A stretch of 43,601 nucleotides of DNA from a virus (lineage: Duplodnaviria > Heunggongvirae > Uroviricota > Caudoviricetes), in IMG/VR virus record IMGVR_UViG_3300045988_013455, positions 1-43,601 of that record, one strand, 5' to 3'. The translations under genes and the position numbers were made by a program. The notes under the pieces were generated by a model. That model was not told the origin of the DNA, ran no database searches, and saw only the letters and a list, made by a program, of their open reading frames with translations. Below, one piece after another: positions 1 through 43,601 of the stretch; position 1 is the first letter of the stretch, and every line of letters begins with the position of its first letter.

Positions 1-55
1 AGTCAGTAAGGTATTTGGTTTTATCCTTAAGCCAATTGCTAAGCTGTTTGGGCTG
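1..55. repeat. Terminal direct repeat, identical to 43547..43601 (circular-assembly overlap / genome junction)
   Basis: Exact 55-nt identity between the window start and end; the reading frame is continuous across the junction. Confidence 0.9.
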
Positions 56-4451: not shown

Positions 4452-5872
4452 TTCTTACCTCGTCTCTTCATGTAATTAAGCAACTCTTCCTGTACAGATT
4501 TCTTCTCGTCAGTGCGCGCGGCAACAACCTCGTCCAGCGTGTCTTTAGCAACGATGTGATACAGGAACACCGGGCGCTCGTGGCCTGCTTGCTTCTGGCG
4601 CACCGGGCCTATACGCTCAACGACCTGCAAATAGTGCTCAAGGTTCCAGCCTTGCGAGATGAACGCCAGATGATGCCCGCCGTCCTGTAAATTCAAACCA
4701 TGACCGGCTGACGCAGGGTGGACGCATAAGATTTCGATTTCACCGCGGTTCCACGCTTCCATCTGCTTATTACCCTTCGCACCTTTAGAAAATGCCTGAG
4801 CCTGCGGGAATCGCTTAAGGATGCGCTCAAGTTCGTGCTTGAACTGATAGGCCACAAGCAACGGCGCACCCTGTAACTCCTCAACGATGGACTCAAGCGC
4901 ATCCAGTTTAGTGTCGTGCACTTTCTCCCAGTCTTTGGTTGCTTCTCCGTCTGGTCCTGATACATATACGGCGCCAGATGCAATCTGTAGACACTTCGAC
5001 GTCTTCGCCGCCGCGTTAGCCGCTTCAACTTCTCCGCTCTCCAGTTCCGCGAATAACTTCTCCTCCATATCGATGTACGCCTGGCGCGCTTTCTTCGGCA
5101 GGTCGATTTCAACAGGGACAATAATCGGCGCTTCACATCCGAACCACTCGGCGGCGTCAATCGTGAGACTAATGTCTTTCATCTTCTGGTGGATTTCATT
5201 ATCCGCACCCGGGCGCGCATGATACTCCCGCGCCATAGCCGACTTACCTTTCTGTACCGAGTTAAACCAGCGGTCGGTGAATGCCGTGTACGAAGAACCG
5301 AGGCGCTCGCCCGCGTCGATAAACCAGTTCTGCCCCCACAAGTCCTTGAGACCGTTTGGCGACGGTGTACCCGTCAGATTAATGAAACGCTTAACTTTAC
5401 CGAATGCCACCTTACTGAGCGCCTTAGCCCGCTTGCTCCCGCCAGAACGGCTGCGGAAGGATTTAAGCTTCGTGCTCTCGTCGGCAACAATAACCGTGAA
5501 AGGCCAGTCGTCTTTGCCGTAGTAGTCAATCAGCCACTCGATAACTTCGTAGTTGGTGCACACCACGTTAGCGTCAGACTCCAGCGCCGCGATGCGGCGC
5601 TTCTCTGAACCAGTAGCATCGACGACACTCAGACAAGGGAAGCTCCACTTAGTTTGTTCTGCAGGCCATGTGCCGGACGCAACACGTAACGGGGCAAGTA
5701 TTAACACGCGGTCGTCATCATTAAGTTGGCCGTTTCGGAACAGTCGGTTTAACACCCACATTGTCGACGAGGTCTTGCCGCCGCCCATACCGCACCAGAT
5801 ATTGCAACGTGGGTGCTGTAGCATAAACGACGTCATTATTTTCTGATATTCCCTGCGCCTAAACTTACTCAT
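4448..5872 (-). CDS. SF2 DNA helicase, SNF2-like
   Basis: Motifs GMGGGKT (Walker A), VIVADES (DExx-type), LTGTPSPNGLKDLWGQ (SNF2 motif III) and a C-terminal helicase domain. Confidence 0.8.
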   Translation of the reverse strand: MSKFRRREYQKIMTSFMLQHPRCNIWCGMGGGKTSSTMWVLNRLFRNGQLNDDDRVLILAPLRVASGTWPAEQTKWSFPCLSVVDATGSEKRRIAALESDANVVCTNYEVIEWLIDYYGKDDWPFTVIVADESTKLKSFRSRSGGSKRAKALSKVAFGKVKRFINLTGTPSPNGLKDLWGQNWFIDAGERLGSSYTAFTDRWFNSVQKGKSAMAREYHARPGADNEIHQKMKDISLTIDAAEWFGCEAPIIVPVEIDLPKKARQAYIDMEEKLFAELESGEVEAANAAAKTSKCLQIASGAVYVSGPDGEATKDWEKVHDTKLDALESIVEELQGAPLLVAYQFKHELERILKRFPQAQAFSKGAKGNKQMEAWNRGEIEILCVHPASAGHGLNLQDGGHHLAFISQGWNLEHYLQVVERIGPVRQKQAGHERPVFLYHIVAKDTLDEVVAARTDEKKSVQEELLNYMKRRGKK

Positions 5873-6366
5873 GCCTTGAACTCCCAGAAGTATATTTCCG
5901 CGGCTCTTTGGTATACGCGCGACGCTTCTTCTATAGTGTCAAAATAGCCAAGGTGGATGTATTTGTTATTGACGCCTATTCTGGCGCGCCACCTGCCAGA
6001 GGGTATTTGGTAAACCCCTATCGCGCCGCTAGTGTTATGTGATGAGCAGTCTCGGTTCTGAATCTGCTGGCTCCTGGTTGCTGGCCTTATATTATTTATG
6101 GCGTTATTAGCCCTGTTACGGTCTTTATGGTCAAGCTCACCATTATGATATTCTCCGTAGACGAAAGCCCATGCCAGATGGTGGGCTTTTATTCTTACAC
6201 CAGATACGGTGATAACTATGTATCCTTTGTCGTTTGGACCCCCGGCTACCTCCCCCGCATTCCTACCTTTTATGCTTACTTTCCGTGTAAATACGCCTGT
6301 TTCGGGGTCATAGTTAAGAAGACGTTTCGCCTCCTCAATATCAGGCCTTCTAGTTAATTTGTTCAT
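5869..6366 (-). CDS. HNH homing endonuclease with C-terminal AP2 DNA-binding domain
   Basis: HHLAWAFVYGEY...ELDHKDRNRANNAINNIRPA (HNH) plus GVYQIPSGRWRARI...LGYFDTIEEASRVYQRAA (AP2-like). Confidence 0.7.
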   Translation of the reverse strand: MNKLTRRPDIEEAKRLLNYDPETGVFTRKVSIKGRNAGEVAGGPNDKGYIVITVSGVRIKAHHLAWAFVYGEYHNGELDHKDRNRANNAINNIRPATRSQQIQNRDCSSHNTSGAIGVYQIPSGRWRARIGVNNKYIHLGYFDTIEEASRVYQRAAEIYFWEFKA

Positions 6367-16623: not shown

Positions 16624-16652
16624 TTGCACACCCCAACATAATAGGTTACTAT
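16624..16652 (+). promoter_or_regulatory. Rightward early promoter (TTGCAC-17-TACTAT) with conserved leader
   Basis: TTGCACaccccaacataataggtTACTATtcac then AAACGAGACAGAGGAG before the ATG at 16678. Confidence 0.55.
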
Positions 16653-16677: not shown

Positions 16678-16884
16678 GTGATGGTTATGTTTAAGAAAGG
16701 TCAGTTGGCGAAAACGAAACGCACCGGACAATATGTATTAGTGTTGCAGGACGAGAACGAGTATGACGAGGATAATCTGGTTGACGTATGGGGCCTGGTA
16801 AGAAAGAAACCCGGGTTCGCCTACCGGGATAATTTAACACTAATAGGCAACAATTTTAAATTAAAAGGGGTGAGATATGAGTAA
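16678..16884 (+). CDS. Hypothetical early protein (68 aa)
   Basis: RBS GAGGAG upstream; first gene after the rightward early promoter. Confidence 0.45.
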   Translation: MMVMFKKGQLAKTKRTGQYVLVLQDENEYDEDNLVDVWGLVRKKPGFAYRDNLTLIGNNFKLKGVRYE

Positions 16885-17080
16885 GTGGATTAAGTGTAGT
16901 GAGATGCTGCCGGGCAATGGGTATGCTGATAAGGAGTTCCTGGTGTATGAAACGTTGAATAACGCCGTTCAGCACGATTATTACATAGTTCCTGATGACG
17001 GAAGAAAGCCTTTCTGGAATCACTACGATAAGTACGTAACGCACTGGATGCCCTTACCTGAGCCACCGGCGCCGGTGTAA
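16877..17080 (+). CDS. DUF551-like phage protein (67 aa)
   Basis: MSKWIKCSEMLP ... THWMPLPEPP, the recalled DUF551 signature; paralog of 17570..17755. Confidence 0.55.
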   Translation: MSKWIKCSEMLPGNGYADKEFLVYETLNNAVQHDYYIVPDDGRKPFWNHYDKYVTHWMPLPEPPAPV

Positions 17081-17422: not shown

Positions 17423-17566
17423 ATGAGAGAAGCATTTGAACGGTGGGCCGCCGTCGAGGGTCTGCCGGTTAACAAGGGTTCAAAGAAAGAGTACCTGAAC
17501 GTTAAGACGCGTCTCGCGTGGCGGGCGTGGAAAGCTGGTGCGCAGGCTGTGATGAATACGAGGTGA
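17423..17566 (+). CDS. Small hypothetical protein (about 47 aa; not in ORF track)
   Basis: My own translation: MREAFERWAAVEGLPVNKGSKKEYLNVKTRLAWRAWKAGAQAVMNTR. Confidence 0.3.
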   Translation: MREAFERWAAVEGLPVNKGSKKEYLNVKTRLAWRAWKAGAQAVMNTR

Positions 17567-17569
17567 GCT

Positions 17570-17755
17570 ATGGGTGAGTGGATTAAGTGTAGTGAGCGGA
17601 TGCCGGAGCCTTATGAATACGTTCTTGTAACTGATTGTTTTGTTGGCTGTGAGGTTATGCGTGTTAATTCAGATGGCTACTGGGGGCCTGCAAAGAGTTT
17701 ATATCACGGTGATATAACGCACTGGATGCCGTTACCTGAGCCCCCGGAAGTGTGA
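17570..17755 (+). CDS. DUF551-like phage protein (61 aa), second copy
   Basis: MGEWIKCSERMP ... ITHWMPLPEPPEV. Confidence 0.55.
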   Translation: MGEWIKCSERMPEPYEYVLVTDCFVGCEVMRVNSDGYWGPAKSLYHGDITHWMPLPEPPEV

Positions 17756-20834: not shown

Positions 20835-20900
20835 CACCTAAGACTAATCCGACGATACTTAAATCACCTCCTGTTCCATCCCTCTGCTCTCCAGTTTTAT

Positions 20901-20930
20901 CCCGGCCCTGACCCAGCCGGGATTTTTTTT
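20901..20930 (+). terminator. Rho-independent terminator after lysis cassette
   Basis: CCCGGC-cctgaccca-GCCGGG followed by ATTTTTTTT. Confidence 0.75.
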
Positions 20931-20953
20931 ATCTATTTTCTGCAATGACTAGT

Positions 20954-20982
20954 TGACTATTACCTTCGACCCTATTATATTT
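20954..20982 (+). promoter_or_regulatory. Sigma70-like promoter (TTGACT-17-TATATT)
   Basis: TTGACTattaccttcgaccctatTATATT upstream of the 21016 gene. Confidence 0.5.
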
Positions 20983-26180: not shown

Positions 26181-26210
26181 AGAAAAAGGCCCCTTACGGG
26201 GCCTTAACTT
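26181..26210. terminator. Bidirectional rho-independent terminator
   Basis: AAGGCCCC-ttac-GGGGCCTT flanked by A-run and T-rich sequence. Confidence 0.7.
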
Positions 26211-26502
26211 TCCAGACTTCTCGAAGCGCTACGAGTTTATGATTACCAATATCTCTTGATATTATTGAGTCAGTAAAACCATTGAACCACGATTTCATCC
26301 AGTCAGACGTTCTGAAATCAGCGTACAGAATATGTATCGTTTGCGGAGCGTCGACGTCGTAATGTTGGCACACATAAACGCATCCGCTGGCGAATATAAT
26401 AGCTTTAAACGTATCGTAATCTTCTGAATCCGGGAACTCGCTAGAATCCCCGACAAGATATCTGTACGCGTATTTTTTAGTAGTCTTCTTTCTTTTCCGC
26501 AT
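26194..26502 (-). CDS. Hypothetical protein (102 aa), antisense cassette A
   Basis: Third gene of a leftward cassette inside the late operon. Confidence 0.45.
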   Translation of the reverse strand: MRKRKKTTKKYAYRYLVGDSSEFPDSEDYDTFKAIIFASGCVYVCQHYDVDAPQTIHILYADFRTSDWMKSWFNGFTDSIISRDIGNHKLVALREVWKVKAP

Positions 26503-26511
26503 GGTGATTTC

Positions 26512-26742
26512 TCAGAAGTGTATTACTGGTTGTTTAAACTTCCAGTCACAATCTACCTGTTTAATCACACCTTTCGCAACAAGACTGTCTATAAATTCCG
26601 GACCTGAATTTGTCTTGTACCATGTGTATCTGTTCCCAACTTTTACGCCCGGAAGGCTGTGGTACACAACGCCATCAACCACCATAAAAGATACGCCGAT
26701 AGCCCCTTTTTCTGCATAGAGTTTTTTAGTCCCACCGCTCAT
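26512..26742 (-). CDS. Hypothetical protein (76 aa), antisense cassette A
   Basis: Second gene of the leftward cassette. Confidence 0.45.
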   Translation of the reverse strand: MSGGTKKLYAEKGAIGVSFMVVDGVVYHSLPGVKVGNRYTWYKTNSGPEFIDSLVAKGVIKQVDCDWKFKQPVIHF

Positions 26743-26779
26743 AGTACACCCAGATTAAATAATTATTAATATAAGGCCC

Positions 26780-26965
26780 TTAGGCCTTACGAATTGTATA
26801 TTCATACCCGAGGTAGCCGTTTTTCTCTTGCATAGCGGAGGCACGCAGCAGAGCAGCATTCTCACCTTTAACTACAGCGACCACATAATCCGTAGAGTCT
26901 GGGCCATTTTCCACAACTTCATACGCCTGTAAGTTCTTGGTGGTAAGTTCATATGTGTTAGTCAT
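26780..26965 (-). CDS. Hypothetical protein (61 aa), antisense cassette A
   Basis: First gene after promoter; conserved leader AAACGAGAGATAAGGAA before ATG. Confidence 0.45.
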   Translation of the reverse strand: MTNTYELTTKNLQAYEVVENGPDSTDYVVAVVKGENAALLRASAMQEKNGYLGYEYTIRKA

Positions 26966-26998
26966 TTCTAAATTCCTTATCTCTCGTTTCGATAAGTG

Positions 26999-27027
26999 AA
27001 TAGTACCCTATTATATTGGTGTCTGCA
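26999..27027 (-). promoter_or_regulatory. Sigma70-like promoter (TTGCAG-17-TACTAT) driving antisense cassette A
   Basis: Minus strand TTGCAGacaccaatataatagggTACTATtcac then conserved leader. Confidence 0.55.
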
Positions 27028-27072
27028 AATATTATTTTTATGCGTTACACTGTCAATACTACAGGAGGGCCT

Positions 27073-28577: not shown

Positions 28578-28610
28578 TAAAAGGCCCCGTTATGGGGCCT
28601 TAGTTTTATT
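28578..28610. terminator. Bidirectional rho-independent terminator
   Basis: AGGCCCC-gttat-GGGGCCT followed by TAGTTTTATT; A-rich on the other side. Confidence 0.7.
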
Positions 28611-28818
28611 CATGTGTCGCTGCTCTAAAATTAAGTTCTTCACGAGGGATAAACCCCCTATCAGTTTTTACATAACAAGTTGTGTAACTATACATTACCT
28701 CTCTGCCCGTGATATCTCCGTAGTTCTCACACCCGTGTTCATCTAAGCTACGTACACCGGCAGCAATTACCAGTGAAAATGCCAATGTCATCAATACCGA
28801 GATAATTAATTCTTTCAT
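28606..28818 (-). CDS. Small secreted/periplasmic protein (70 aa), antisense cassette B
   Basis: N-terminal signal-like MKELIISVLMTLAFSLVIAAG, two Cys in the mature part; own promoter and terminator. Confidence 0.5.
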   Translation of the reverse strand: MKELIISVLMTLAFSLVIAAGVRSLDEHGCENYGDITGREVMYSYTTCYVKTDRGFIPREELNFRAATHE

Positions 28819-28853
28819 CTTTAAGTTCCTTATCTCTCGTTTCGATGCAATGA

Positions 28854-28882
28854 ATAGTACCCTATTATATTGGTGCCTGCAA
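28854..28882 (-). promoter_or_regulatory. Sigma70-like promoter (TTGCAG-17-TACTAT) driving antisense cassette B
   Basis: Minus strand TTGCAGgcaccaatataatagggTACTATtcat then AAACGAGAGATAAGGAA. Confidence 0.55.
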
Positions 28883-34462: not shown

Positions 34463-34875
34463 TGGGCTACTTTGAGGACTTAACAAAAGCGTTTGATGTG
34501 CCGCTGGTAGCCTTCGGAACAACCAACGGCATCAAGGTGGCGCTTGAAAACATCGACGCGCCGACGTCAACTGATACGCCGTATCTGGCAAGCTACATGT
34601 TGCTGGCCGACACCGAGCAGGCTGATTTGTTCTTCACGGAACAACGCTCAGGCATCTATCAGGTCGACATTAACTACGCATCGGTGAAAGGTAGCGCGCC
34701 GATCAATAAAATGGCAGACTTACTTAACACGGCGTTTAAAGCAGGTAAGTCATTTTCGCGTAACGACATTTGCGCCGAGGTTCAATCGGTTAGCCTGGGG
34801 CCGCTGATTGTAGAAAACGGATGGGCCAAACGACCATTGTCAATTAACTTTATTGCATTCACCAAGAGGCTGTGA
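34462..34875 (+). CDS. Putative tail terminator / tail completion protein
   Basis: 137-aa ORF immediately upstream of the major tail protein gene. Confidence 0.4.
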   Translation: MGYFEDLTKAFDVPLVAFGTTNGIKVALENIDAPTSTDTPYLASYMLLADTEQADLFFTEQRSGIYQVDINYASVKGSAPINKMADLLNTAFKAGKSFSRNDICAEVQSVSLGPLIVENGWAKRPLSINFIAFTKRL

Positions 34876-36044
34876 ATATGGCTACAACTCCTTTTAAGGG
34901 CGCGAATACCGCGCAATTCTATGTGGCGGAAGTGACCCCGGGCGTAACCCCAAGTAACCCTGTCTGGTCGCCGTTGCGTAACACGGGAGGCGTTCCTGCC
35001 ATTACCCGCGACACGCTGACCTCCAACGAACTGGATGGCAGTCGTGAAACTACGTCCATCCGCACCGGTAACAAACAGGTTAGCGGGGAGTACGCCATTG
35101 AGCTTAGCTCGAAAAGCCAGGATGACTGGTTAGCCGGGGCTTTAGGCTCTACGTGGCAGTCCGGGGTTTCTCTGCCAGGGTTATCGATTACCGTTGCCCC
35201 CGCAGGCAAGACGTTCACACGCGCTACCGGCAGTTTTATCACTGACGGAGTTGGGGTAGGCGACCTGATTGCGTTTACCGATTTAACAGGCGATAACGCA
35301 AAACCATTTATTGTTACTGCAGTAACGGCTACGGTTGTTACTGGTGCGGGCATCCAACACACCCTGACCACCGAGACAAAAACTAGTAAGGCTAAAACTG
35401 GCGACACGTTGGAAACCGGTAACGCGTGTAAGACGTTCTCTATCCTTACCTGGTACAAAGGCCAGTGCGGCGGTACTGACGCGTACACGTTAACCAAAGG
35501 CGTGGAAGTTTCTGGTTTTACCATCGAACAGGCTGTTAACGCGATGGTAACTGGCAGCTTCCCATTCATCGGTCGCAGTCAGGAGATTCTCACTACGCCG
35601 CCGACCGGTTCCAACTTCTCATCTGTTACTTTTGGTGATGAGCCGTTCTCATCGGTTGACGTTTCTGTGTTCGATGGCTCAACGCCGTTGCGTTGCGACA
35701 GCCTGACCATCACCAACGACAACAGCGCGTCCGCACAGTTCGAACTCGGCAACTCTAACGTTGCGTTTGTGGAACGTAGCCGCGCAGCTAACACCTTCTC
35801 CATCTCCGGCAAGCTGTATGATATGGCGATGATTCAGAAGTTTATCAACGAGCAGCAGGTAGAGATTAACTCTATTCTGGCGGGGGTAAACGGTGCTATG
35901 TCTTTCAGTTTGAAACGTGCGGAGCTTACGGCAGTTACCCCAGAGATTGGCGGACCTGAGTCAATCACTCAGTCCATTGAAGGGCAGTCCACGGGCAATC
36001 AATATCAATCTTCTATTGTAATACAGCGTATTAGCTACGCATAA
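34872..36044 (+). CDS. Major tail (tube) protein
   Basis: 390-aa Thr/Ser/Gly-rich ORF upstream of chaperone and tape measure genes; RBS AAGAGG. Confidence 0.55.
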   Translation: MNMATTPFKGANTAQFYVAEVTPGVTPSNPVWSPLRNTGGVPAITRDTLTSNELDGSRETTSIRTGNKQVSGEYAIELSSKSQDDWLAGALGSTWQSGVSLPGLSITVAPAGKTFTRATGSFITDGVGVGDLIAFTDLTGDNAKPFIVTAVTATVVTGAGIQHTLTTETKTSKAKTGDTLETGNACKTFSILTWYKGQCGGTDAYTLTKGVEVSGFTIEQAVNAMVTGSFPFIGRSQEILTTPPTGSNFSSVTFGDEPFSSVDVSVFDGSTPLRCDSLTITNDNSASAQFELGNSNVAFVERSRAANTFSISGKLYDMAMIQKFINEQQVEINSILAGVNGAMSFSLKRAELTAVTPEIGGPESITQSIEGQSTGNQYQSSIVIQRISYA

Positions 36045-36075
36045 AACTAAGGCCCCTTTCGGGGCCTTTTTCTTA
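36045..36075. terminator. Bidirectional rho-independent terminator
   Basis: AAGGCCCC-tttc-GGGGCCTT followed by TTTCTT; A-run on the other side. Confidence 0.7.
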
Positions 36076-36303
36076 CTCGTCAATGTTGCTCCGGTACTCC
36101 CGTAACTTCTCCAGACTTTCAATTGCTTCCGATAAGTCAGTTCCTGTGTCCTTGTGTCCCCGCAATCCCATGCATAATAGCTTCTTCAATGCGTGCTGTA
36201 GCGCTGGGTCGCGGATGTCGAAAGCGCGTAGCACATCATAAACGTCTACTGTCATGGTGCTGCCGTGAGTGTTTGTCATTGTGCGGTTGTATTTATTTGT
36301 CAC
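36073..36303 (-). CDS. Hypothetical protein (76 aa), antisense cassette C
   Basis: Last gene of the leftward cassette. Confidence 0.45.
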   Translation of the reverse strand: MTNKYNRTMTNTHGSTMTVDVYDVLRAFDIRDPALQHALKKLLCMGLRGHKDTGTDLSEAIESLEKLREYRSNIDE

Positions 36304-36493
36304 TGTTAACTCTCTTAAATCTGGCTATGCCTGACTCGTTAATGTTGCCTATTTCAAAGAAGCTGCGATATTTAGGCGAATACATTCTTACGTCGCCATT
36401 CTCCAGGGTGATCCCTTCATATATGGCCCCTACTTCGAATCCATTTTTCTCCGCGTACGGGCTCACATCGGTGCATTCATACATATCTTTCAT
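36293..36493 (-). CDS. Hypothetical protein (66 aa), antisense cassette C
   Basis: ATGA overlap with the upstream phosphoesterase gene. Confidence 0.45.
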   Translation of the reverse strand: MKDMYECTDVSPYAEKNGFEVGAIYEGITLENGDVRMYSPKYRSFFEIGNINESGIARFKRVNSDK

Positions 36494-37620
36494 CCAAGCA
36501 TCTCCGGTGAAATAGTTAAACGTGCTACCTCGCCATATTCGGCGCTATAAGTGATTACATTCGCACTACGGCCCGACATCCAACCCCCGCGGGAGGCGTA
36601 GGCGTCTTTAGCCGCTAAGGTGCGGTGTTGCTCAACAATCATGTTACGGCTTTCCACAATCTTCTGATGGTGCAGATGGCCTACGTGGGCGTAACTGTAA
36701 ACACTCTCGCCGAACGCTTTACGGAACTTGGCGATCATAACCGGTTCGATAGCGTCGAATCGTGCTTTATGCCCGTGTGTAAAGAACAACGTCGTTTTGC
36801 CGTGTTGCACCATCTTGTAAACATCCGGCGACGTATCGACGAACACACGCGGCTCATTGCCATACAGCGTACTGAACATCTCAGCCAACCAAATCATGCC
36901 ACTCTCGTCGTGGTTACCTTGCACAATAAGCAAGCGAACAGTTTTATGCTTAACCAGCGCCATATCGACAACACGGCGGACCATGCGAATCATGTAGCGG
37001 ACAAGTTTCTGGTAGCGGGTATCGGCGTCAAGAACGTGACCACTTGCGGGTGTAACCGCGTCCAGACTATCGAAGTGCGCAAGGTCGCCCAGCAGGTTAA
37101 TAACTCCTGTTCCCGCGTCCGGTGATTTCTGAAACGCTGCGTCGAACCAGCGAGAGAACAGGTCTTCTGCAATCTTCATATCCCAGTCGTCGCCGCTCTC
37201 GTCAGCCCATGCCAGCATACCGAGATGGAAATCAGATACAGTGTAAAGATTAAGTAGCTTGTCGTCGCGTTTGGCACGTGCCGCTTTAACAGGCGCAACC
37301 GGGGTAATCTCTGACTTCATGCCTTCGATTACGGCTTTCATCAATTCAACCTGACGTTCGGCGTCAGTATCGGTCTTAACCCATTGCAACTTAGTGTTGC
37401 CGAACTCATCGACAAGTGACGACGTTCCTTTAATCTTGTAGCCGTCCGGAACAAGGTGACTAACGTCACGCCCGTGGCCTACGCCTTTCTTAGCCAGCTT
37501 CGCTTTACGGATACGAATAACGCGGTCTGAGATGCCGTATTTACGGGCGATGTCGATATTCTTCATACCGGCGTTCAATTCTTCCTGCAACTGTTCGTCG
37601 GTTATTTTCTTCTGGGCCAT
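36490..37620 (-). CDS. HTH domain fused to calcineurin-like metallophosphoesterase (SbcD/Mre11-like motif set)
   Basis: N-terminal HTH-like NIDIARKYGISDRVIRIRK; motifs VSDFHLG, LLGDLAHFD, VQGNHDE, FTHGH, HVGHLHH in canonical order. Confidence 0.6.
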   Translation of the reverse strand: MAQKKITDEQLQEELNAGMKNIDIARKYGISDRVIRIRKAKLAKKGVGHGRDVSHLVPDGYKIKGTSSLVDEFGNTKLQWVKTDTDAERQVELMKAVIEGMKSEITPVAPVKAARAKRDDKLLNLYTVSDFHLGMLAWADESGDDWDMKIAEDLFSRWFDAAFQKSPDAGTGVINLLGDLAHFDSLDAVTPASGHVLDADTRYQKLVRYMIRMVRRVVDMALVKHKTVRLLIVQGNHDESGMIWLAEMFSTLYGNEPRVFVDTSPDVYKMVQHGKTTLFFTHGHKARFDAIEPVMIAKFRKAFGESVYSYAHVGHLHHQKIVESRNMIVEQHRTLAAKDAYASRGGWMSGRSANVITYSAEYGEVARLTISPEMLG

Positions 37621-37657
37621 GCTTATTCCTCGTGCTTAGGATTTGTCCTATACTAGC

Positions 37658-37864
37658 TCACTTCTCGTTAACATTCGAGTTGCACGCCCAGATTAAAATA
37701 AAGACCCACGGCAACAGAATCCAACCAAGAAACAGATTGGCCATGAATATCGCCAACTTCGCTTTATGGTCACGGAAATACGCAACCAGAAAAGGTGCGA
37801 AATAGGCGAGTAGTGCAAACAGAATTAAGGAAACTGGTAAACTGGACATTTTAAACTCCTTCAT
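37658..37864 (-). CDS. Small two-TMD membrane protein (68 aa), antisense cassette C
   Basis: SLPVSLILFALLAYFAPFLVAYF and IFMANLFLGWILLPWVFILIWA; first gene after promoter. Confidence 0.5.
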   Translation of the reverse strand: MKEFKMSSLPVSLILFALLAYFAPFLVAYFRDHKAKLAIFMANLFLGWILLPWVFILIWACNSNVNEK

Positions 37865-37879
37865 TGTTGGCGTGAGTGA

Positions 37880-37908
37880 ATAGTACCCTATTATATTGGG
37901 GCGCGCAA
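37880..37908 (-). promoter_or_regulatory. Sigma70-like promoter (TTGCGC-17-TACTAT) driving antisense cassette C
   Basis: Minus strand TTGCGCgccccaatataatagggTACTATtcac, same module as at 26999 and 28854. Confidence 0.5.
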
Positions 37909-38015
37909 GTAGTGTGCTAGAATAAGTTTGCGCCTAGTGTCGCACACGAAAAGCGGGTGGTTCCCGTCTGGCGCATTAACCTTAACCTGTAACCTCTTAA
38001 CCAAAGGATTAAAGA

Positions 38016-38432
38016 ATGAAACTTTCCGATTTTTATTTCGAAGAGAAAGCACTGGTGGGCAAGAAGATGCCGATTCTGCTGCCAAACGGCGAAGACTCCG
38101 GCGAGTGGCTTAACGTTGTAAGCCCTGATGCGGATGCCGCCGTTAAAGCCGGGCGTGCTTTCATTATCGCGTACCGCCGCGGGCTGGCGCGTTTCGAAGA
38201 ACTGGAAAAAGCCGCCAAAAAATCTGGTGACTATACCGAATATAACCTGGCTGTTAACGAACTGGCTGAAGACCTCAACCGGCAACTTGCAGCAGAAGTC
38301 GTAAACGGCTGGAGCTTTGATGAGCCTTTCTCTAAAGAAGCATTTAGCAAATTGCTGGATCAGTTCAAGGCATTGGGTACACAGGTAGCCGCGTTCCATA
38401 ACGCCGAGCGCAAAGCATTACAGGAAAAGTAG
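38016..38432 (+). CDS. Tail assembly chaperone (lambda gpG-like position)
   Basis: 138-aa acidic ORF directly upstream of the tape measure gene; RBS AAAGGA. Confidence 0.5.
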   Translation: MKLSDFYFEEKALVGKKMPILLPNGEDSGEWLNVVSPDADAAVKAGRAFIIAYRRGLARFEELEKAAKKSGDYTEYNLAVNELAEDLNRQLAAEVVNGWSFDEPFSKEAFSKLLDQFKALGTQVAAFHNAERKALQEK

Positions 38433-38797
38433 ACGCGCTGTACAGGTTCGCCACCTACGAGTTTGTGGATAAGCATAAAATCAGAGAGTTTGATTCTATA
38501 GCTGACGGTCACGAACAGGCGCTTATCGCGATGGGTGTAATCGATAAGAAAAAACGTGCAGCGCGACGGGGTGGGCCAGAATGCCCGCCCCTTTTTATAT
38601 CCACCTTTGAGACGTACTGTGATATTAAGTTTACGCGACACGTGCGCGAGGACGCTGTAGTATTGTTCGCAAGAGAATCCGTTACGTGGCAAGACCTGAA
38701 ATCCTATCTCGATGTTACGCAAAAACAGCTTAGCCTGTTCGAGATAGACATTATCATGGGCTTAGAAGCAATCTTTGAAGGTAGAAATCATGGCTGA
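38402..38797 (+). CDS. Possible -1 frameshift extension of the tail chaperone (gpGT-like)
   Basis: The -1 frame is open from 38402 and overlaps the chaperone 3' end at A-rich AGGAAAAG; ends near the tape measure start. Confidence 0.3.
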   Translation, partial: RRAQSITGKVDALYRFATYEFVDKHKIREFDSIADGHEQALIAMGVIDKKKRAARRGGPECPPLFISTFETYCDIKFTRHVREDAVVLFARESVTWQDLKSYLDVTQKQLSLFEIDIIMGLEAIFEGRNHG

Positions 38798-43385: not shown

Positions 43386-43601
43386 ATGGAGTTTGTCGTT
43401 AACCGTATCCCGGACGGCGTTCCGGTACGCGTCTATCTTGGCGAGATTGGTGATGATACAGACGTAACGGACGACTTCGATGCGCTTAAAGACGAAGACG
43501 CCGTGTACCATATTATCGAGGGTGCGGGTAGCGGGGCGCTCGGTGTAGTCAGTAAGGTATTTGGTTTTATCCTTAAGCCAATTGCTAAGCTGTTTGGGCT
43601 G
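43386..43601 (+). CDS. 5' part of the gpI/gpJ-like tail-tip gene (continues in frame at position 1; start ATG 43380 or 43386)
   Basis: DAVYHIIEGAGSGALGVVSKVFGFIL resembles the C-terminal segment of lambda gpI; no stop before the window end. Confidence 0.6.
   Translation, partial: MEFVVNRIPDGVPVRVYLGEIGDDTDVTDDFDALKDEDAVYHIIEGAGSGALGVVSKVFGFILKPIAKLFGL
43547..43601. repeat. Terminal direct repeat, identical to 1..55
   Basis: Exact 55-nt identity with the window start. Confidence 0.9.

What the first reader, a model, noticed from the sequence alone, without database searches (positions are those of the whole stretch)
36045..37910. Antisense early cassette in the tail module encoding an HTH-metallophosphoesterase
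Four leftward genes sit between the major tail protein and tail chaperone genes: a 68-aa two-TMD membrane protein, a 376-aa HTH plus SbcD/Mre11-like metallophosphoesterase, and 66-aa and 76-aa proteins. They are driven by the same promoter module as the early genes and bounded by a bidirectional terminator. No Rad50/SbcC partner is present. A stand-alone nuclease or phosphodiesterase with a DNA-binding domain, expressed early from the late region, is a candidate host-takeover, exclusion or anti-defence function.
Basis: partly seen in the sequence, partly recalled or inferred. Interest (0 to 1): 0.7.

Follow-up and report, generated by a model that had tools for sequence, protein, structure and literature searches.

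The report
Conserved antisense immunity–phosphoesterase operon
This is a real leftward four-gene operon inside the tail genes of a Kagunavirus-type phage; it encodes a T4 Imm-type superinfection-immunity membrane protein and a DNA-binding metallophosphoesterase that is the homologue of phage T1 gp16, which makes it standard, already-annotated equipment of this phage group with an untested function, not a special accessory.

Summary
Four minus-strand genes lie between the tail-tube and tail-chaperone genes, behind a repeated promoter motif and ahead of a two-way hairpin terminator. No Rad50/SbcC gene is in the genome.

The small membrane protein belongs to Pfam Imm_superinfect. The 376-aa protein has a three-helix HTH, a linker, and a metallophosphoesterase domain with all five metal-binding motifs invariant. 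Its closest folds are PolD DP1, Mre11 and SbcD.

- The enzyme is PHROG 704, the homologue of T1 gp16.
- It occurs in about 2,055 phage genomes and about 4,650 protein clusters at 50% identity.
- It is near-universal in Guernseyvirinae and under strong purifying selection (dN/dS 0.02–0.04).

It therefore behaves as a core enzyme, not a variable counter-defence gene.

My best reading is a DNA-tethered, Rad50-independent nuclease serving phage DNA metabolism, by analogy with Bxb1 gp47. This is unproven.

"Early" timing is only inferred. The promoter type is shared with a rightward block that also includes the lysis genes.

Side finding: a conserved int-alpA-like RNA element lies just upstream of the chaperone gene.

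The parts
37877..37908 (-). Leftward promoter module: TTGCGC (37908-37903), 17 nt, TACTAT (37885-37880), then TCA. Inferred transcription start near 37873.
   Evidence: The pattern TTGC-N19-TACTATTCA has 5 exact copies in the window against 0.11 expected. The module is conserved in Bas74, fEg-Eco06 and, in diverged form, in Jerseyvirus. No transcription start site has been mapped.
37879..37892 (.). Palindrome AATAG-N4-CTATT overlapping the -10 element; a possible operator for an unidentified regulator.
   Evidence: 12 sites with at most 1 mismatch against 1.12 expected. The sites fall in both promoter classes. A published PHIRE motif, tgAATAGTa-ccTATTat-T, was found 7 times in a relative (PMC9825357).
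37658..37864 (-). Imm-type superinfection-immunity membrane protein. The maximal ORF is 68 aa; the likely start is 37849, giving 63 aa.
   Evidence: Pfam PF14373 Imm_superinfect, E=2e-12, 47.2 bits against a cut-off of 27.9. PHROG 1039 'immunity to superinfection', 1.7e-23. Two hydrophobic segments. AAGGAG lies 6 nt before the second ATG.
36490..37620 (-). 376-aa HTH-metallophosphoesterase (T1 gp16 / PHROG 704 family). HTH is codons 5-46 (37483-37608). A beta-hairpin plus helix linker spans residues 55-105. The phosphoesterase domain is residues 119-376 (36493-37266).
36293..36493 (-). 66-aa lineage-restricted protein with no recognisable family.
   Evidence: No Pfam, PHROG, NCBIfam or PADLOC match. 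tblastn finds it in only 26 Kagunavirus records. It is absent from Bas74.
36073..36303 (-). 76-aa conserved small protein (GTG start); a beta-hairpin plus three helices.
36049..36068 (.). Two-way intrinsic terminator shared by the tail-tube gene (+) and the cassette (-).
   Evidence: The terminator scan finds it on both strands: 8 bp stem, 6 GC pairs, T-runs on both sides. The same hairpin type ends the two other antisense cassettes (families D6 and D11).
37867..37894 (+). Candidate rightward sigma70-type promoter (TTGGCG, 16 nt, TATTAT) overlapping the leftward promoter. It would restart tail-gene transcription near 37901.
   Evidence: 9 of 12 consensus match. This is a consensus match only, and such matches are no more frequent here than in shuffled sequence.
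37927..37991 (+). Adjacent conserved structured element resembling the Rfam int-alpA RNA, upstream of the tail-chaperone gene. It is outside the cassette transcript.
   Evidence: RF02996, 31.3 bits (gathering score 35.8), E=5.5e-4 in a 2.3-kb search and 0.01 over the whole window. It is the most conserved stretch of the intergenic region. The Jerseyvirus variant carries compensatory changes.

Best explanation
**The operon.** The region is a four-gene leftward operon embedded in the rightward tail module of a Kagunavirus-type (Guernseyvirinae) phage. Host sigma70 RNA polymerase probably starts at TTGCGC-N17-TACTAT (37908-37880). Transcription ends at the two-way hairpin at 36049-36068.

**Gene 1.** This is a T4 Imm-type two-helix inner-membrane protein. 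I infer that it blocks DNA entry by superinfecting phages.

**Gene 2.** This is a binuclear-metal phosphodiesterase of the Mre11/SbcD/PolD-DP1 structural class, fused to an N-terminal helix-turn-helix. I infer that the HTH tethers it to DNA. I also infer that it works as a Rad50-independent exo- or endonuclease in phage DNA metabolism (replication, recombination or end and branch processing). This would be the way the stand-alone phosphoesterase Bxb1 gp47 is needed for mycobacteriophage DNA replication.

**Genes 3 and 4.** These are a lineage-restricted 66-aa protein and a widespread 76-aa small protein, both of unknown role.

**Shown:** the gene structure, the repeated promoter motif, the terminator, the family memberships, the fold, the intact active site, the wide distribution and the purifying selection.

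**Inferred:** the timing, the DNA substrate, nuclease activity and the biological role.
For: - ORFs and coupling.
- Promoter motif 5 copies against 0.11 expected. Terminator.
- Imm family above the Pfam cut-off.
- Full-length PHROG 704 match.
- D130, H132, N236, H237, H282, H315 and H317 invariant and D179 conserved in >=90% of 80 sequences of 27-35% identity to the query.
- Model pLDDT 79.7 with HTH plus phosphoesterase domain.
- The motif II context GDLAH, with H182 invariant, resembles the Mre11 GDLFH signature. That resemblance is from my own knowledge.
- Core-gene behaviour: 2,055 phage records; 4,648 clusters at 50% identity, mostly 375-420 aa; dN/dS 0.017-0.044 and 88% aa identity between genera.
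- T1 gp16 is a homologue.
- In other phages the gene sits among or at the end of DNA-metabolism genes. Examples are the Edwardsiella phage (exonuclease, endonuclease VII, this enzyme), the Microbulbifer prophage (after NinG) and LL5 and T1 (after the methylase and helicase block).
Against: - No biochemical or genetic data exist for any member of this family that I could find.
- Profile comparison with E. coli SbcD and with Bxb1 gp47 is not significant: probabilities 0.64% and 0.45%.
- Pfam matches are just under their cut-offs.
- The gene's position varies between phage groups and is often next to lysis or packaging genes, not replication genes.
- The only RNA-seq paper on a Kagunavirus has too coarse a time course to place the genes (PMC12645636).
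- The promoter class also heads a block that runs into the lysis genes, so 'early' is unproven.
Confidence: 0.45

Rival explanations
1. Host-takeover or counter-defence enzyme. The phosphoesterase is made before the late genes. It either damages host DNA to silence defence genes, as reported for mycobacteriophage A10ZJ24 gp48, or it destroys nucleotide immune signals.
For: - A10ZJ24 gp48 is a stand-alone phage phosphoesterase. It is expressed early, disrupts host DNA integrity and is needed to overcome host defences (PMC12287305).
- The gene here shares an operon with an exclusion gene (Imm) under a non-late type promoter.
- T1 is known to degrade host DNA (own knowledge).
Against: - The gene is near-universal, of constant length and strongly constrained. 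Counter-defence genes are usually patchy and fast-evolving (general knowledge).
- No PADLOC match.
- No significant sequence relation to the mycobacteriophage enzyme.
- An HTH argues for a DNA target over a small-molecule one.
- Kagunaviruses remain highly sensitive to restriction-modification and variably sensitive to Old (PMC11990801).
Confidence: 0.2
2. Nucleic-acid end-healing enzyme. The phosphoesterase removes 2',3'-cyclic or 3'-phosphate ends from RNA or DNA. It would be part of a repair pathway against anticodon nucleases or nicking defences, like the phosphoesterase module of bacterial Pnkp.
For: - In Kagunavirus fEg-Eco06 the two small genes are replaced by a HAD phosphatase annotated as polynucleotide kinase (DxDGT motif) and a dNMP kinase.
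- In an Edwardsiella autographivirus the homologue is followed by a dNMP kinase and a 'PNKP adenylyltransferase and ligase domain protein'.
- T1 encodes a T4 Pnk-like protein elsewhere in its genome.
Against: - These neighbours occur in a small minority of genomes. The window has no kinase or ligase.
Confidence: 0.1
3. Primarily a transcription regulator. The HTH binds promoters, as a late-gene switch or an early shut-off, and the enzyme domain is secondary.
For: - The gene lies immediately before lysis or packaging genes in T1, LL5 and Dhillonvirus. In a lambdoid-type prophage it occupies the position after NinG where Q and NinI sit in lambda.
- A weak PHROG 836 'late transcriptional activator' match covers residues 5-36, E=0.0013.
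- Some depositors name it a transcriptional regulator or DNA-binding protein.
- A palindrome sits in the window's repeated class I and class II promoter modules.
Against: - All catalytic residues are conserved (all invariant except D179 at >=90%), so the enzyme activity is what selection keeps.
- The AATAG-N4-CTATT palindrome is absent from Dhillonvirus Over9000, whose protein is 76% identical. It is essentially absent from T1 as well. This HTH is therefore not its reader.
- Campylobacter phage homologues lack the N-terminal part.
Confidence: 0.1

Closest known systems
Phage T1 gp16 / PHROG 704 ('DNA repair exonuclease'), found in Drexlerviridae, Dhillonvirus and Guernseyvirinae
   Same: Full-length homologue with the same HTH, linker and phosphoesterase build and about the same length (T1 377 aa, 46% identity; Dhillonvirus 76%). 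PHROG 704 matches end to end.
   Different: - Genomic position. In T1, LL5 and Dhillonvirus the gene is co-oriented with, and just upstream of, lysis or packaging genes. Here it sits in an antisense cassette inside the tail module, paired with an Imm gene.
- The family name is a prediction; I found no experiment behind it.
Mre11 / SbcD nucleases
   Different: - No Rad50/SbcC partner in the genome.
- The model shows no capping domain and no C-terminal Rad50-binding helices, since the chain ends with the core sandwich.
- It has an extra N-terminal HTH.
- It has a family-specific conserved insert, T190..G194-H195-x-L197-D198-x-D200-x-R202, between motifs II and III.
- Profile comparison with E. 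coli SbcD is not significant.
Archaeal PolD small subunit DP1 (3'-5' proofreading exonuclease)
   Different: - 11% identity.
- No DP2 partner; the phage polymerase is family A and carries its own 3'-5' exonuclease domain.
- No OB domain was identified.
Mycobacteriophage cluster A phosphoesterases (Bxb1 gp47 / L5 gp54 / A10ZJ24 gp48)
   Same: Stand-alone phage phosphoesterase without Rad50. Its structural neighbours are the same (Mre11, DP1, LpxH). It is needed for phage DNA replication, shows weak nuclease activity, and is expressed early and damages host DNA (PMC11795197, PMC12287305).
   Different: - About 255 aa with no HTH.
- No significant sequence relation to this family (hhalign probability 0.45%).
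- Bxb1 gp47 also acts as a recombination directionality factor, which has no counterpart in this integrase-less phage.
T4 Imm (Pfam PF14373 Imm_superinfect)
   Same: Small protein with two membrane helices that matches the family model above its cut-off.
   Different: - Shorter: 63-68 aa against 83 aa in T4 (own knowledge).
- It sits in a siphophage that recognises surface glycans.
- Exclusion activity is untested.
Cor-type exclusion genes of T1, N15 and phi80
   Same: A small exclusion gene on the opposite strand inside or after the tail genes of a small siphophage (T1 ST30, Dhillonvirus gp27).
   Different: Unrelated protein family. Here the antisense unit also carries a large conserved enzyme.

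Membership tests
Calcineurin-like metallophosphoesterase superfamily | Five metal-binding motifs: DxH, GD, GNH(D/E), H, GHxH | tested here: met
   D130-F-H132, G178-D179, G235-N236-H237-D238, H282 and G314-H315-L-H317. All are invariant or at least 90% conserved in 80 sequences of 27-35% identity to the query.
Calcineurin-like metallophosphoesterase superfamily | Beta-sandwich phosphoesterase fold | tested here: met
Calcineurin-like metallophosphoesterase superfamily | Pfam model score above the gathering cut-off | tested here: not met
   Metallophos_2 scores 23.8 bits against 27. Metallophos scores 19.0 against 21.5. Some 97%-identical relatives do carry a precomputed PF12850 hit.
PHROG 704 (T1 gp16 family) | End-to-end match to the family profile | tested here: met
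   E=1.4e-166; residues 3-375 against profile positions 1-389 of 390.
Mre11/SbcD | Rad50/SbcC ATPase partner encoded alongside | tested here: not met
   None among the window's ORFs or in the annotated relative Bas74.
Mre11/SbcD | Capping domain and C-terminal Rad50-binding helices | tested here: not met
   The model ends with core strands 353-370 and a 4-residue helix. Only 186-194 residues align with Mre11/SbcD chains of 319-476 residues.
Mre11/SbcD | Family-level sequence similarity | tested here: not met
   hhalign of the family alignment against E. coli SbcD: probability 0.64%, E=0.09. No PDB sequence hit.
Mre11/SbcD | Mn-dependent exo- or endonuclease activity on DNA | not testable with these tools
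   Needs biochemistry.
PolD DP1 | Works with a DP2 catalytic subunit; has an OB domain | tested here: not met
   The phage polymerase is family A. No DP2 is present. Identity to DP1 is 11%.
Helix-turn-helix DNA-binding domain (LuxR/FixJ/sigma70 region 4-like) | Three-helix bundle with a recognised HTH profile match | tested here: inconclusive
   Helices at 8-16, 21-28 and 32-46, with pLDDT 85-90. GerE 0.012, FixJ 0.0035 and PHROG 836 0.0013 are all below threshold. Relatives carry assorted precomputed HTH Pfam hits.
Pfam Imm_superinfect (T4 Imm) | Profile score above the cut-off, plus two membrane helices | tested here: met
   47.2 bits against 27.9. Two hydrophobic segments.
Pfam Imm_superinfect (T4 Imm) | Blocks DNA entry of superinfecting phage | not testable with these tools
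   Needs plating assays.
Rfam RF02996 int-alpA RNA (adjacent element) | Covariance-model score above the gathering score | tested here: not met
   31.3 bits against 35.8; E=0.01 for the whole window.
Rfam RF02996 int-alpA RNA (adjacent element) | Base pairs kept through compensatory change | tested here: inconclusive
   Hairpin 1 changes from GUG/CAC to CGG/CCG. The outer stem changes from GCGCC/GGCGC to GCGUC/GGUGC between Kagunavirus and Jerseyvirus. There are only two independent sequence types.
Known anti-phage defence or counter-defence families (PADLOC) | Profile match | tested here: not met
   No match for any of the four proteins at E up to 0.1.

The most novel reading that the evidence does not exclude
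The T1 gp16 family, present in over 2,000 sequenced phages, is not a DNA-repair nuclease at all. Instead it is a DNA-anchored phosphodiesterase that removes a nucleotide-based or DNA-end-based immune signal. It is expressed with the Imm protein as a pre-late 'protection' operon. It would then be a widespread counter-defence enzyme hidden behind a misleading annotation.
Probability: 0.1. Interest if true: 0.7.

Novelty: new member of a known kind. Interest (0 to 1): 0.3.

Why it matters
The cassette itself is ordinary for Guernseyvirinae and is already annotated in hundreds of GenBank records. The enzyme still deserves attention. It is a large family that is constant in length and strongly constrained, and it includes a gene of the classical phage T1. 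Depositors give it six or more contradictory names: DNA repair exonuclease, DNA polymerase II small subunit, Ser/Thr phosphatase, phosphodiesterase, transcriptional regulator and DNA-binding protein. I could find no experiment on it.

Showing what a Rad50-independent, HTH-tethered Mre11-like enzyme does would correct thousands of annotations. It could also explain a step of DNA replication or processing in small siphophages that are now used for therapy and synthetic biology.

The genome layout is also a tidy model for how phages interleave timing classes. It has three antisense units with one promoter type and one terminator type inside the late operon, and a conserved RNA element where tail transcription must resume.

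Tried and rejected
1. **Does the HTH read the promoter palindrome AATAG-N4-CTATT?** Rejected. There are 12-13 sites in the window and in Bas74, none in Dhillonvirus (protein 76% identical), and one imperfect site in T1.
2. **Family-level link to SbcD or to Bxb1 gp47.** hhalign probabilities are 0.64% and 0.45%. PDB sequence searches with the single sequence and with the profile found nothing relevant.
3. **Defence and counter-defence profiles (PADLOC).** No match.
4. **Essentiality data.** The CRISPRi-ART phage PTXU04 turned out not to be a Kagunavirus: it has 92 genes and a 2,198-aa polyvalent protein.
5. **Timing from RNA-seq of Kagunavirus K1B4.** The paper puts the imm gene in the same class as the DNA polymerase and methylases, and the tail genes in another class. 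However, its 5-120 min classes are too coarse to use, and the supplements gave no per-gene values.
6. **The 76-aa protein.**
   - No Pfam match.
   - A DUF3310 lead from a neighbouring gene in a marine phage gave only hhalign E=0.008, probability 4.9%.
   - No conserved small-gene partner of the enzyme was found across T1, LL5, Dhillonvirus and Vibrio phages.
7. **The 66-aa protein.** No family in any library; restricted to 26 genomes.
8. **Literature.** Searches for Guernseyvirinae or Drexlerviridae together with phosphoesterase, and for T1 gene 2.5, gave nothing useful. One search was wasted on loose terms.
Full report
**What the window is.** The first and last 55 nt are identical (family D4), so the window is a complete, circularly closed phage genome of 43,546 bp. 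The finding region is about 90% identical at DNA level to many Escherichia Kagunavirus genomes. It matches 450 phage records in all, mostly Salmonella Jerseyvirus and Escherichia Kagunavirus. The gene order matches the annotated relative Bas74.

**The observation.** One search lists four minus-strand ORFs:
- 37864..37658 (68 aa)
- 37620..36490 (376 aa)
- 36493..36293 (66 aa)
- 36303..36073 (76 aa)

They lie between the tail-tube gene (34872..36044 +) and two tail-assembly-chaperone genes (38016..38432 + and 38465..38797 +), all identified by Pfam. The genes are packed like an operon, with an ATGA stop-start overlap and an 11-nt overlap.

The first ORF has a perfect AAGGAG 6 nt before its second ATG (37849). 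A close relative is annotated from that start. The product is therefore probably 63 aa. It has two hydrophobic segments.

The hairpin at 36049-36068 scores as an intrinsic terminator on both strands. No Rad50/SbcC-like protein is encoded anywhere in the window.

**Promoter.** TTGC-N19-TACTATTCA occurs five times with no mismatch, against 0.11 expected. I read it as TTGCnC, 17 nt, TACTAT.

- Two copies point rightward, at 16624 and 17903. They head a block of small genes that runs on into the holin and endolysin genes up to a terminator near 20,900.
- Three copies point leftward inside the late region. Each heads an antisense cassette and each cassette ends at the same kind of AAGGCCCC...GGGGCCTT hairpin. 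Cassette A is 26965..26194, cassette B is 28818..28606, and the third is the cassette under study.
- The leftward replication genes use a different, near-consensus TTGACA-N17-TATAGT promoter.

Both promoter types contain the palindrome AATAG-N4-CTATT, with 12 sites against 1.1 expected. The same repeated motif was reported from a relative with PHIRE (PMC9825357).

Timing is not established. The only Kagunavirus RNA-seq study groups the imm gene with the DNA polymerase and methylases, not with its tail-gene neighbours. Its classes are too coarse to rely on (PMC12645636).

**The small membrane protein.** It matches Pfam Imm_superinfect above the curated cut-off (47.2 against 27.9 bits) and PHROG 1039 'immunity to superinfection'. 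GenBank annotators already call it that.

**The 376-aa protein.**
- It matches PHROG 704 ('DNA repair exonuclease') from end to end, E=1.4e-166.
- Pfam Metallophos_2 and Metallophos match just below their cut-offs.
- I aligned it with 79 relatives, most of them only 27-35% identical (A1). Six of the seven canonical metal ligands are invariant: D130, H132, N236, H282, H315 and H317. The seventh, D179, is conserved in at least 90% of sequences. H182 and H237 are also invariant (for numbering).
- A family-specific stretch between motifs II and III is also nearly invariant: T190, G194, H195, L197, D198, D200 and R202.
- The AlphaFold model (pLDDT 79.7, pTM 0.69) shows a three-helix HTH (8-46), a beta-hairpin plus helix (61-102) and the phosphoesterase domain (119-376).

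The fold and the intact active site are thus shown, and the nearest structures are nucleases. The substrate is not fixed by this evidence.

The protein is not a canonical Mre11/SbcD:
- It has no partner ATPase.
- The model has no capping domain and no Rad50-binding helices.
- It has no significant profile similarity to E. coli SbcD.

**Distribution and selection.**
- tblastn finds the protein in 2,055 phage records, 1,959 of them nearly full length.
- These include Dhillonvirus (76% identity), Drexlerviridae including T1 itself (gp16/ST16, 46%), Klebsiella Webervirus, Vibrio siphophages (30%), an Edwardsiella autographivirus (52%), Campylobacter myophages and roseobacter podophages.
- An exhaustive search of representatives at 50% identity gives 4,648 clusters at E of 1e-3 or better and 1,144 at 1e-30 or better, mostly 375-420 aa.
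- Structure search in BFVD finds many further phage proteins of about 400 aa, including some from Bacillus and Lactobacillus phages.
- Within Guernseyvirinae the gene is essentially universal: the tail tube is in about 495 records and the cassette DNA in 450.
- Against relatives, dN/dS is 0.017-0.044. The protein is 88% identical between Kagunavirus and Jerseyvirus, compared with 68.5% for the tail tube and 54% for the chaperone.
- Some Jerseyviruses carry a second allele only 56% identical, while the neighbouring 76-aa gene stays 89.5% identical. This is an allele swap that preserves the function slot.

This is the behaviour of a core enzyme.

**Context elsewhere.** The gene's position is not fixed.
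- In T1 and LL5 it follows the methylase and helicase block and precedes the lysis genes.
- In Dhillonvirus it is the last gene before the terminase.
- In a Microbulbifer lambdoid-type prophage it follows NinG, where NinI and Q sit in lambda.
- In the Edwardsiella phage it follows an exonuclease and endonuclease VII, and precedes a dNMP kinase and a Pnkp-ligase-like gene.
- Only in Guernseyvirinae is it in an antisense cassette with imm.

The part of the cassette downstream of the enzyme is variable.
- The 66-aa gene occurs in just 26 Kagunavirus records and is absent from Bas74.
- In fEg-Eco06 both small genes are replaced by a HAD phosphatase and a dNMP kinase.
- Jerseyviruses add a Rha/Ant-like gene.
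- The 76-aa protein is widespread, in 774 records. Its confident model has no informative structural neighbour.

**Mechanism.** I commit to a DNA-tethered, Rad50-independent nuclease acting in phage DNA metabolism, with confidence about 0.45.

Beyond fold, HTH and core-gene behaviour, the best support is a precedent. Bxb1 gp47 is a stand-alone phage phosphoesterase whose predicted structure has the same neighbours (Mre11, DP1, LpxH). [quoted passage not shown] The related A10ZJ24 gp48 is expressed early and damages host DNA (PMC12287305).

The window's protein is not a sequence-level member of that mycobacteriophage family. This is a 'works like' argument, not a membership claim.

Three rivals remain open:
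- host-DNA degradation or signal destruction as counter-defence (0.2)
- end-healing for nucleic-acid repair, suggested by occasional kinase, phosphatase and ligase neighbours (0.1)
- a mainly regulatory role of the HTH (0.1)

The regulatory rival is weakened by the conserved catalytic residues. It is weakened further because the promoter palindrome is absent from Dhillonvirus and T1.

**Side finding.** The intergenic region between the cassette promoter and the chaperone gene is more conserved than the flanking genes across both genera.
- On the plus strand, 37927-37991 matches the Rfam int-alpA RNA at 31.3 bits. This is below the 35.8 gathering score. E is 5.5e-4 locally and 0.01 for the whole window.
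- An exact-pattern scan of viral contigs finds the core in 47 contigs, nearly all 41-45 kb Guernseyvirinae-sized genomes.
- The Jerseyvirus variant changes one hairpin from GUG/CAC to CGG/CCG and keeps the outer stem through wobble pairs.
- A consensus-type rightward promoter (TTGGCG, 16 nt, TATTAT at 37867-37894) overlaps the leftward promoter and would start about 25 nt upstream of the element.

This suggests, but does not show, that the spot is where tail-gene transcription resumes after the terminator and the antisense unit, and that the RNA element is part of that control.

**Verdict.** The functional reading is only partly supported. The feature is a further member of a known, widely annotated but uncharacterised kind.

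Noticed in passing
window 37927-37991 (+): A conserved structured element resembling the Rfam int-alpA RNA (31.3 bits, below the 35.8 gathering score) lies just upstream of the tail-chaperone gene. Its core is invariant across Kagunavirus, and Jerseyvirus carries compensatory changes. It occurs in 47 IMG/VR contigs, nearly all of Guernseyvirinae size.
   Followed up: partly
window 37975-38005 (+): A run of four TAACC repeats (TTAACCTTAACCTGTAACCTCTTAACC) lies between the RNA element and the chaperone ribosome-binding site. The repeats are partly conserved in both genera while the spacing between them varies.
   Followed up: no
window 26194-27056 (-) and 28606-28882 (-): Two more leftward cassettes sit in the head-gene region, with the same promoter module and the same hairpin terminator type. 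Cassette A has 61-, 76- and 102-aa genes plus a second, near-consensus TTGACA promoter at 27056, and is missing from Bas74. Cassette B is a single 70-aa protein with an N-terminal hydrophobic segment. None has a known function.
   Followed up: partly
window 6592, 10149, 12825 (minus-strand promoters): The replication genes have near-consensus TTGACA-N17-TATAGT promoters that carry the same AATAG-N4-CTATT palindrome in their spacer. This suggests one unidentified regulator acts on both promoter classes.
   Followed up: partly
window 1-55 and 43547-43601: An exact 55-nt terminal duplication. The window is a complete genome of 43,546 bp, closed on itself by the assembler or reflecting a circular permutation.
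   Followed up: no
L008 (Salmonella phage 4FS1) compared with L007 (f18SE): Jerseyviruses carry two alleles of the phosphoesterase, 88% and 56% identical to the window's. The adjacent 76-aa gene stays about 90% identical in both. This is a gene-sized replacement within the cassette.
   Followed up: partly
L006 3628-4670 (fEg-Eco06); L009 4259-5696 (Edwardsiella phage): In some relatives the enzyme is followed by a HAD phosphatase and a dNMP kinase, or by a dNMP kinase and a Pnkp-ligase-like gene. Together these would make up the three activities of a nucleic-acid end-repair pathway.
   Followed up: partly
window 5869-6366 (-): An HNH endonuclease with an AP2 DNA-binding domain sits among the replication genes. 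It is probably a homing endonuclease. Relatives have HNH insertions at other places, including inside this cassette.
   Followed up: no
window 16869-17069 and 17562-17747 (+): Two stretches of 87-94% identity, about 690 nt apart (repeat families D10 and D13). They indicate a duplicated pair of small genes in the rightward non-structural block.
   Followed up: no
window 20885-20981 (+): A strong hairpin terminator with a U-run (20885-20930) is followed directly by a good TTGACT-N17-TATATT promoter (20953-20981). This may be where the transcript for the small genes and terminase begins.
   Followed up: no
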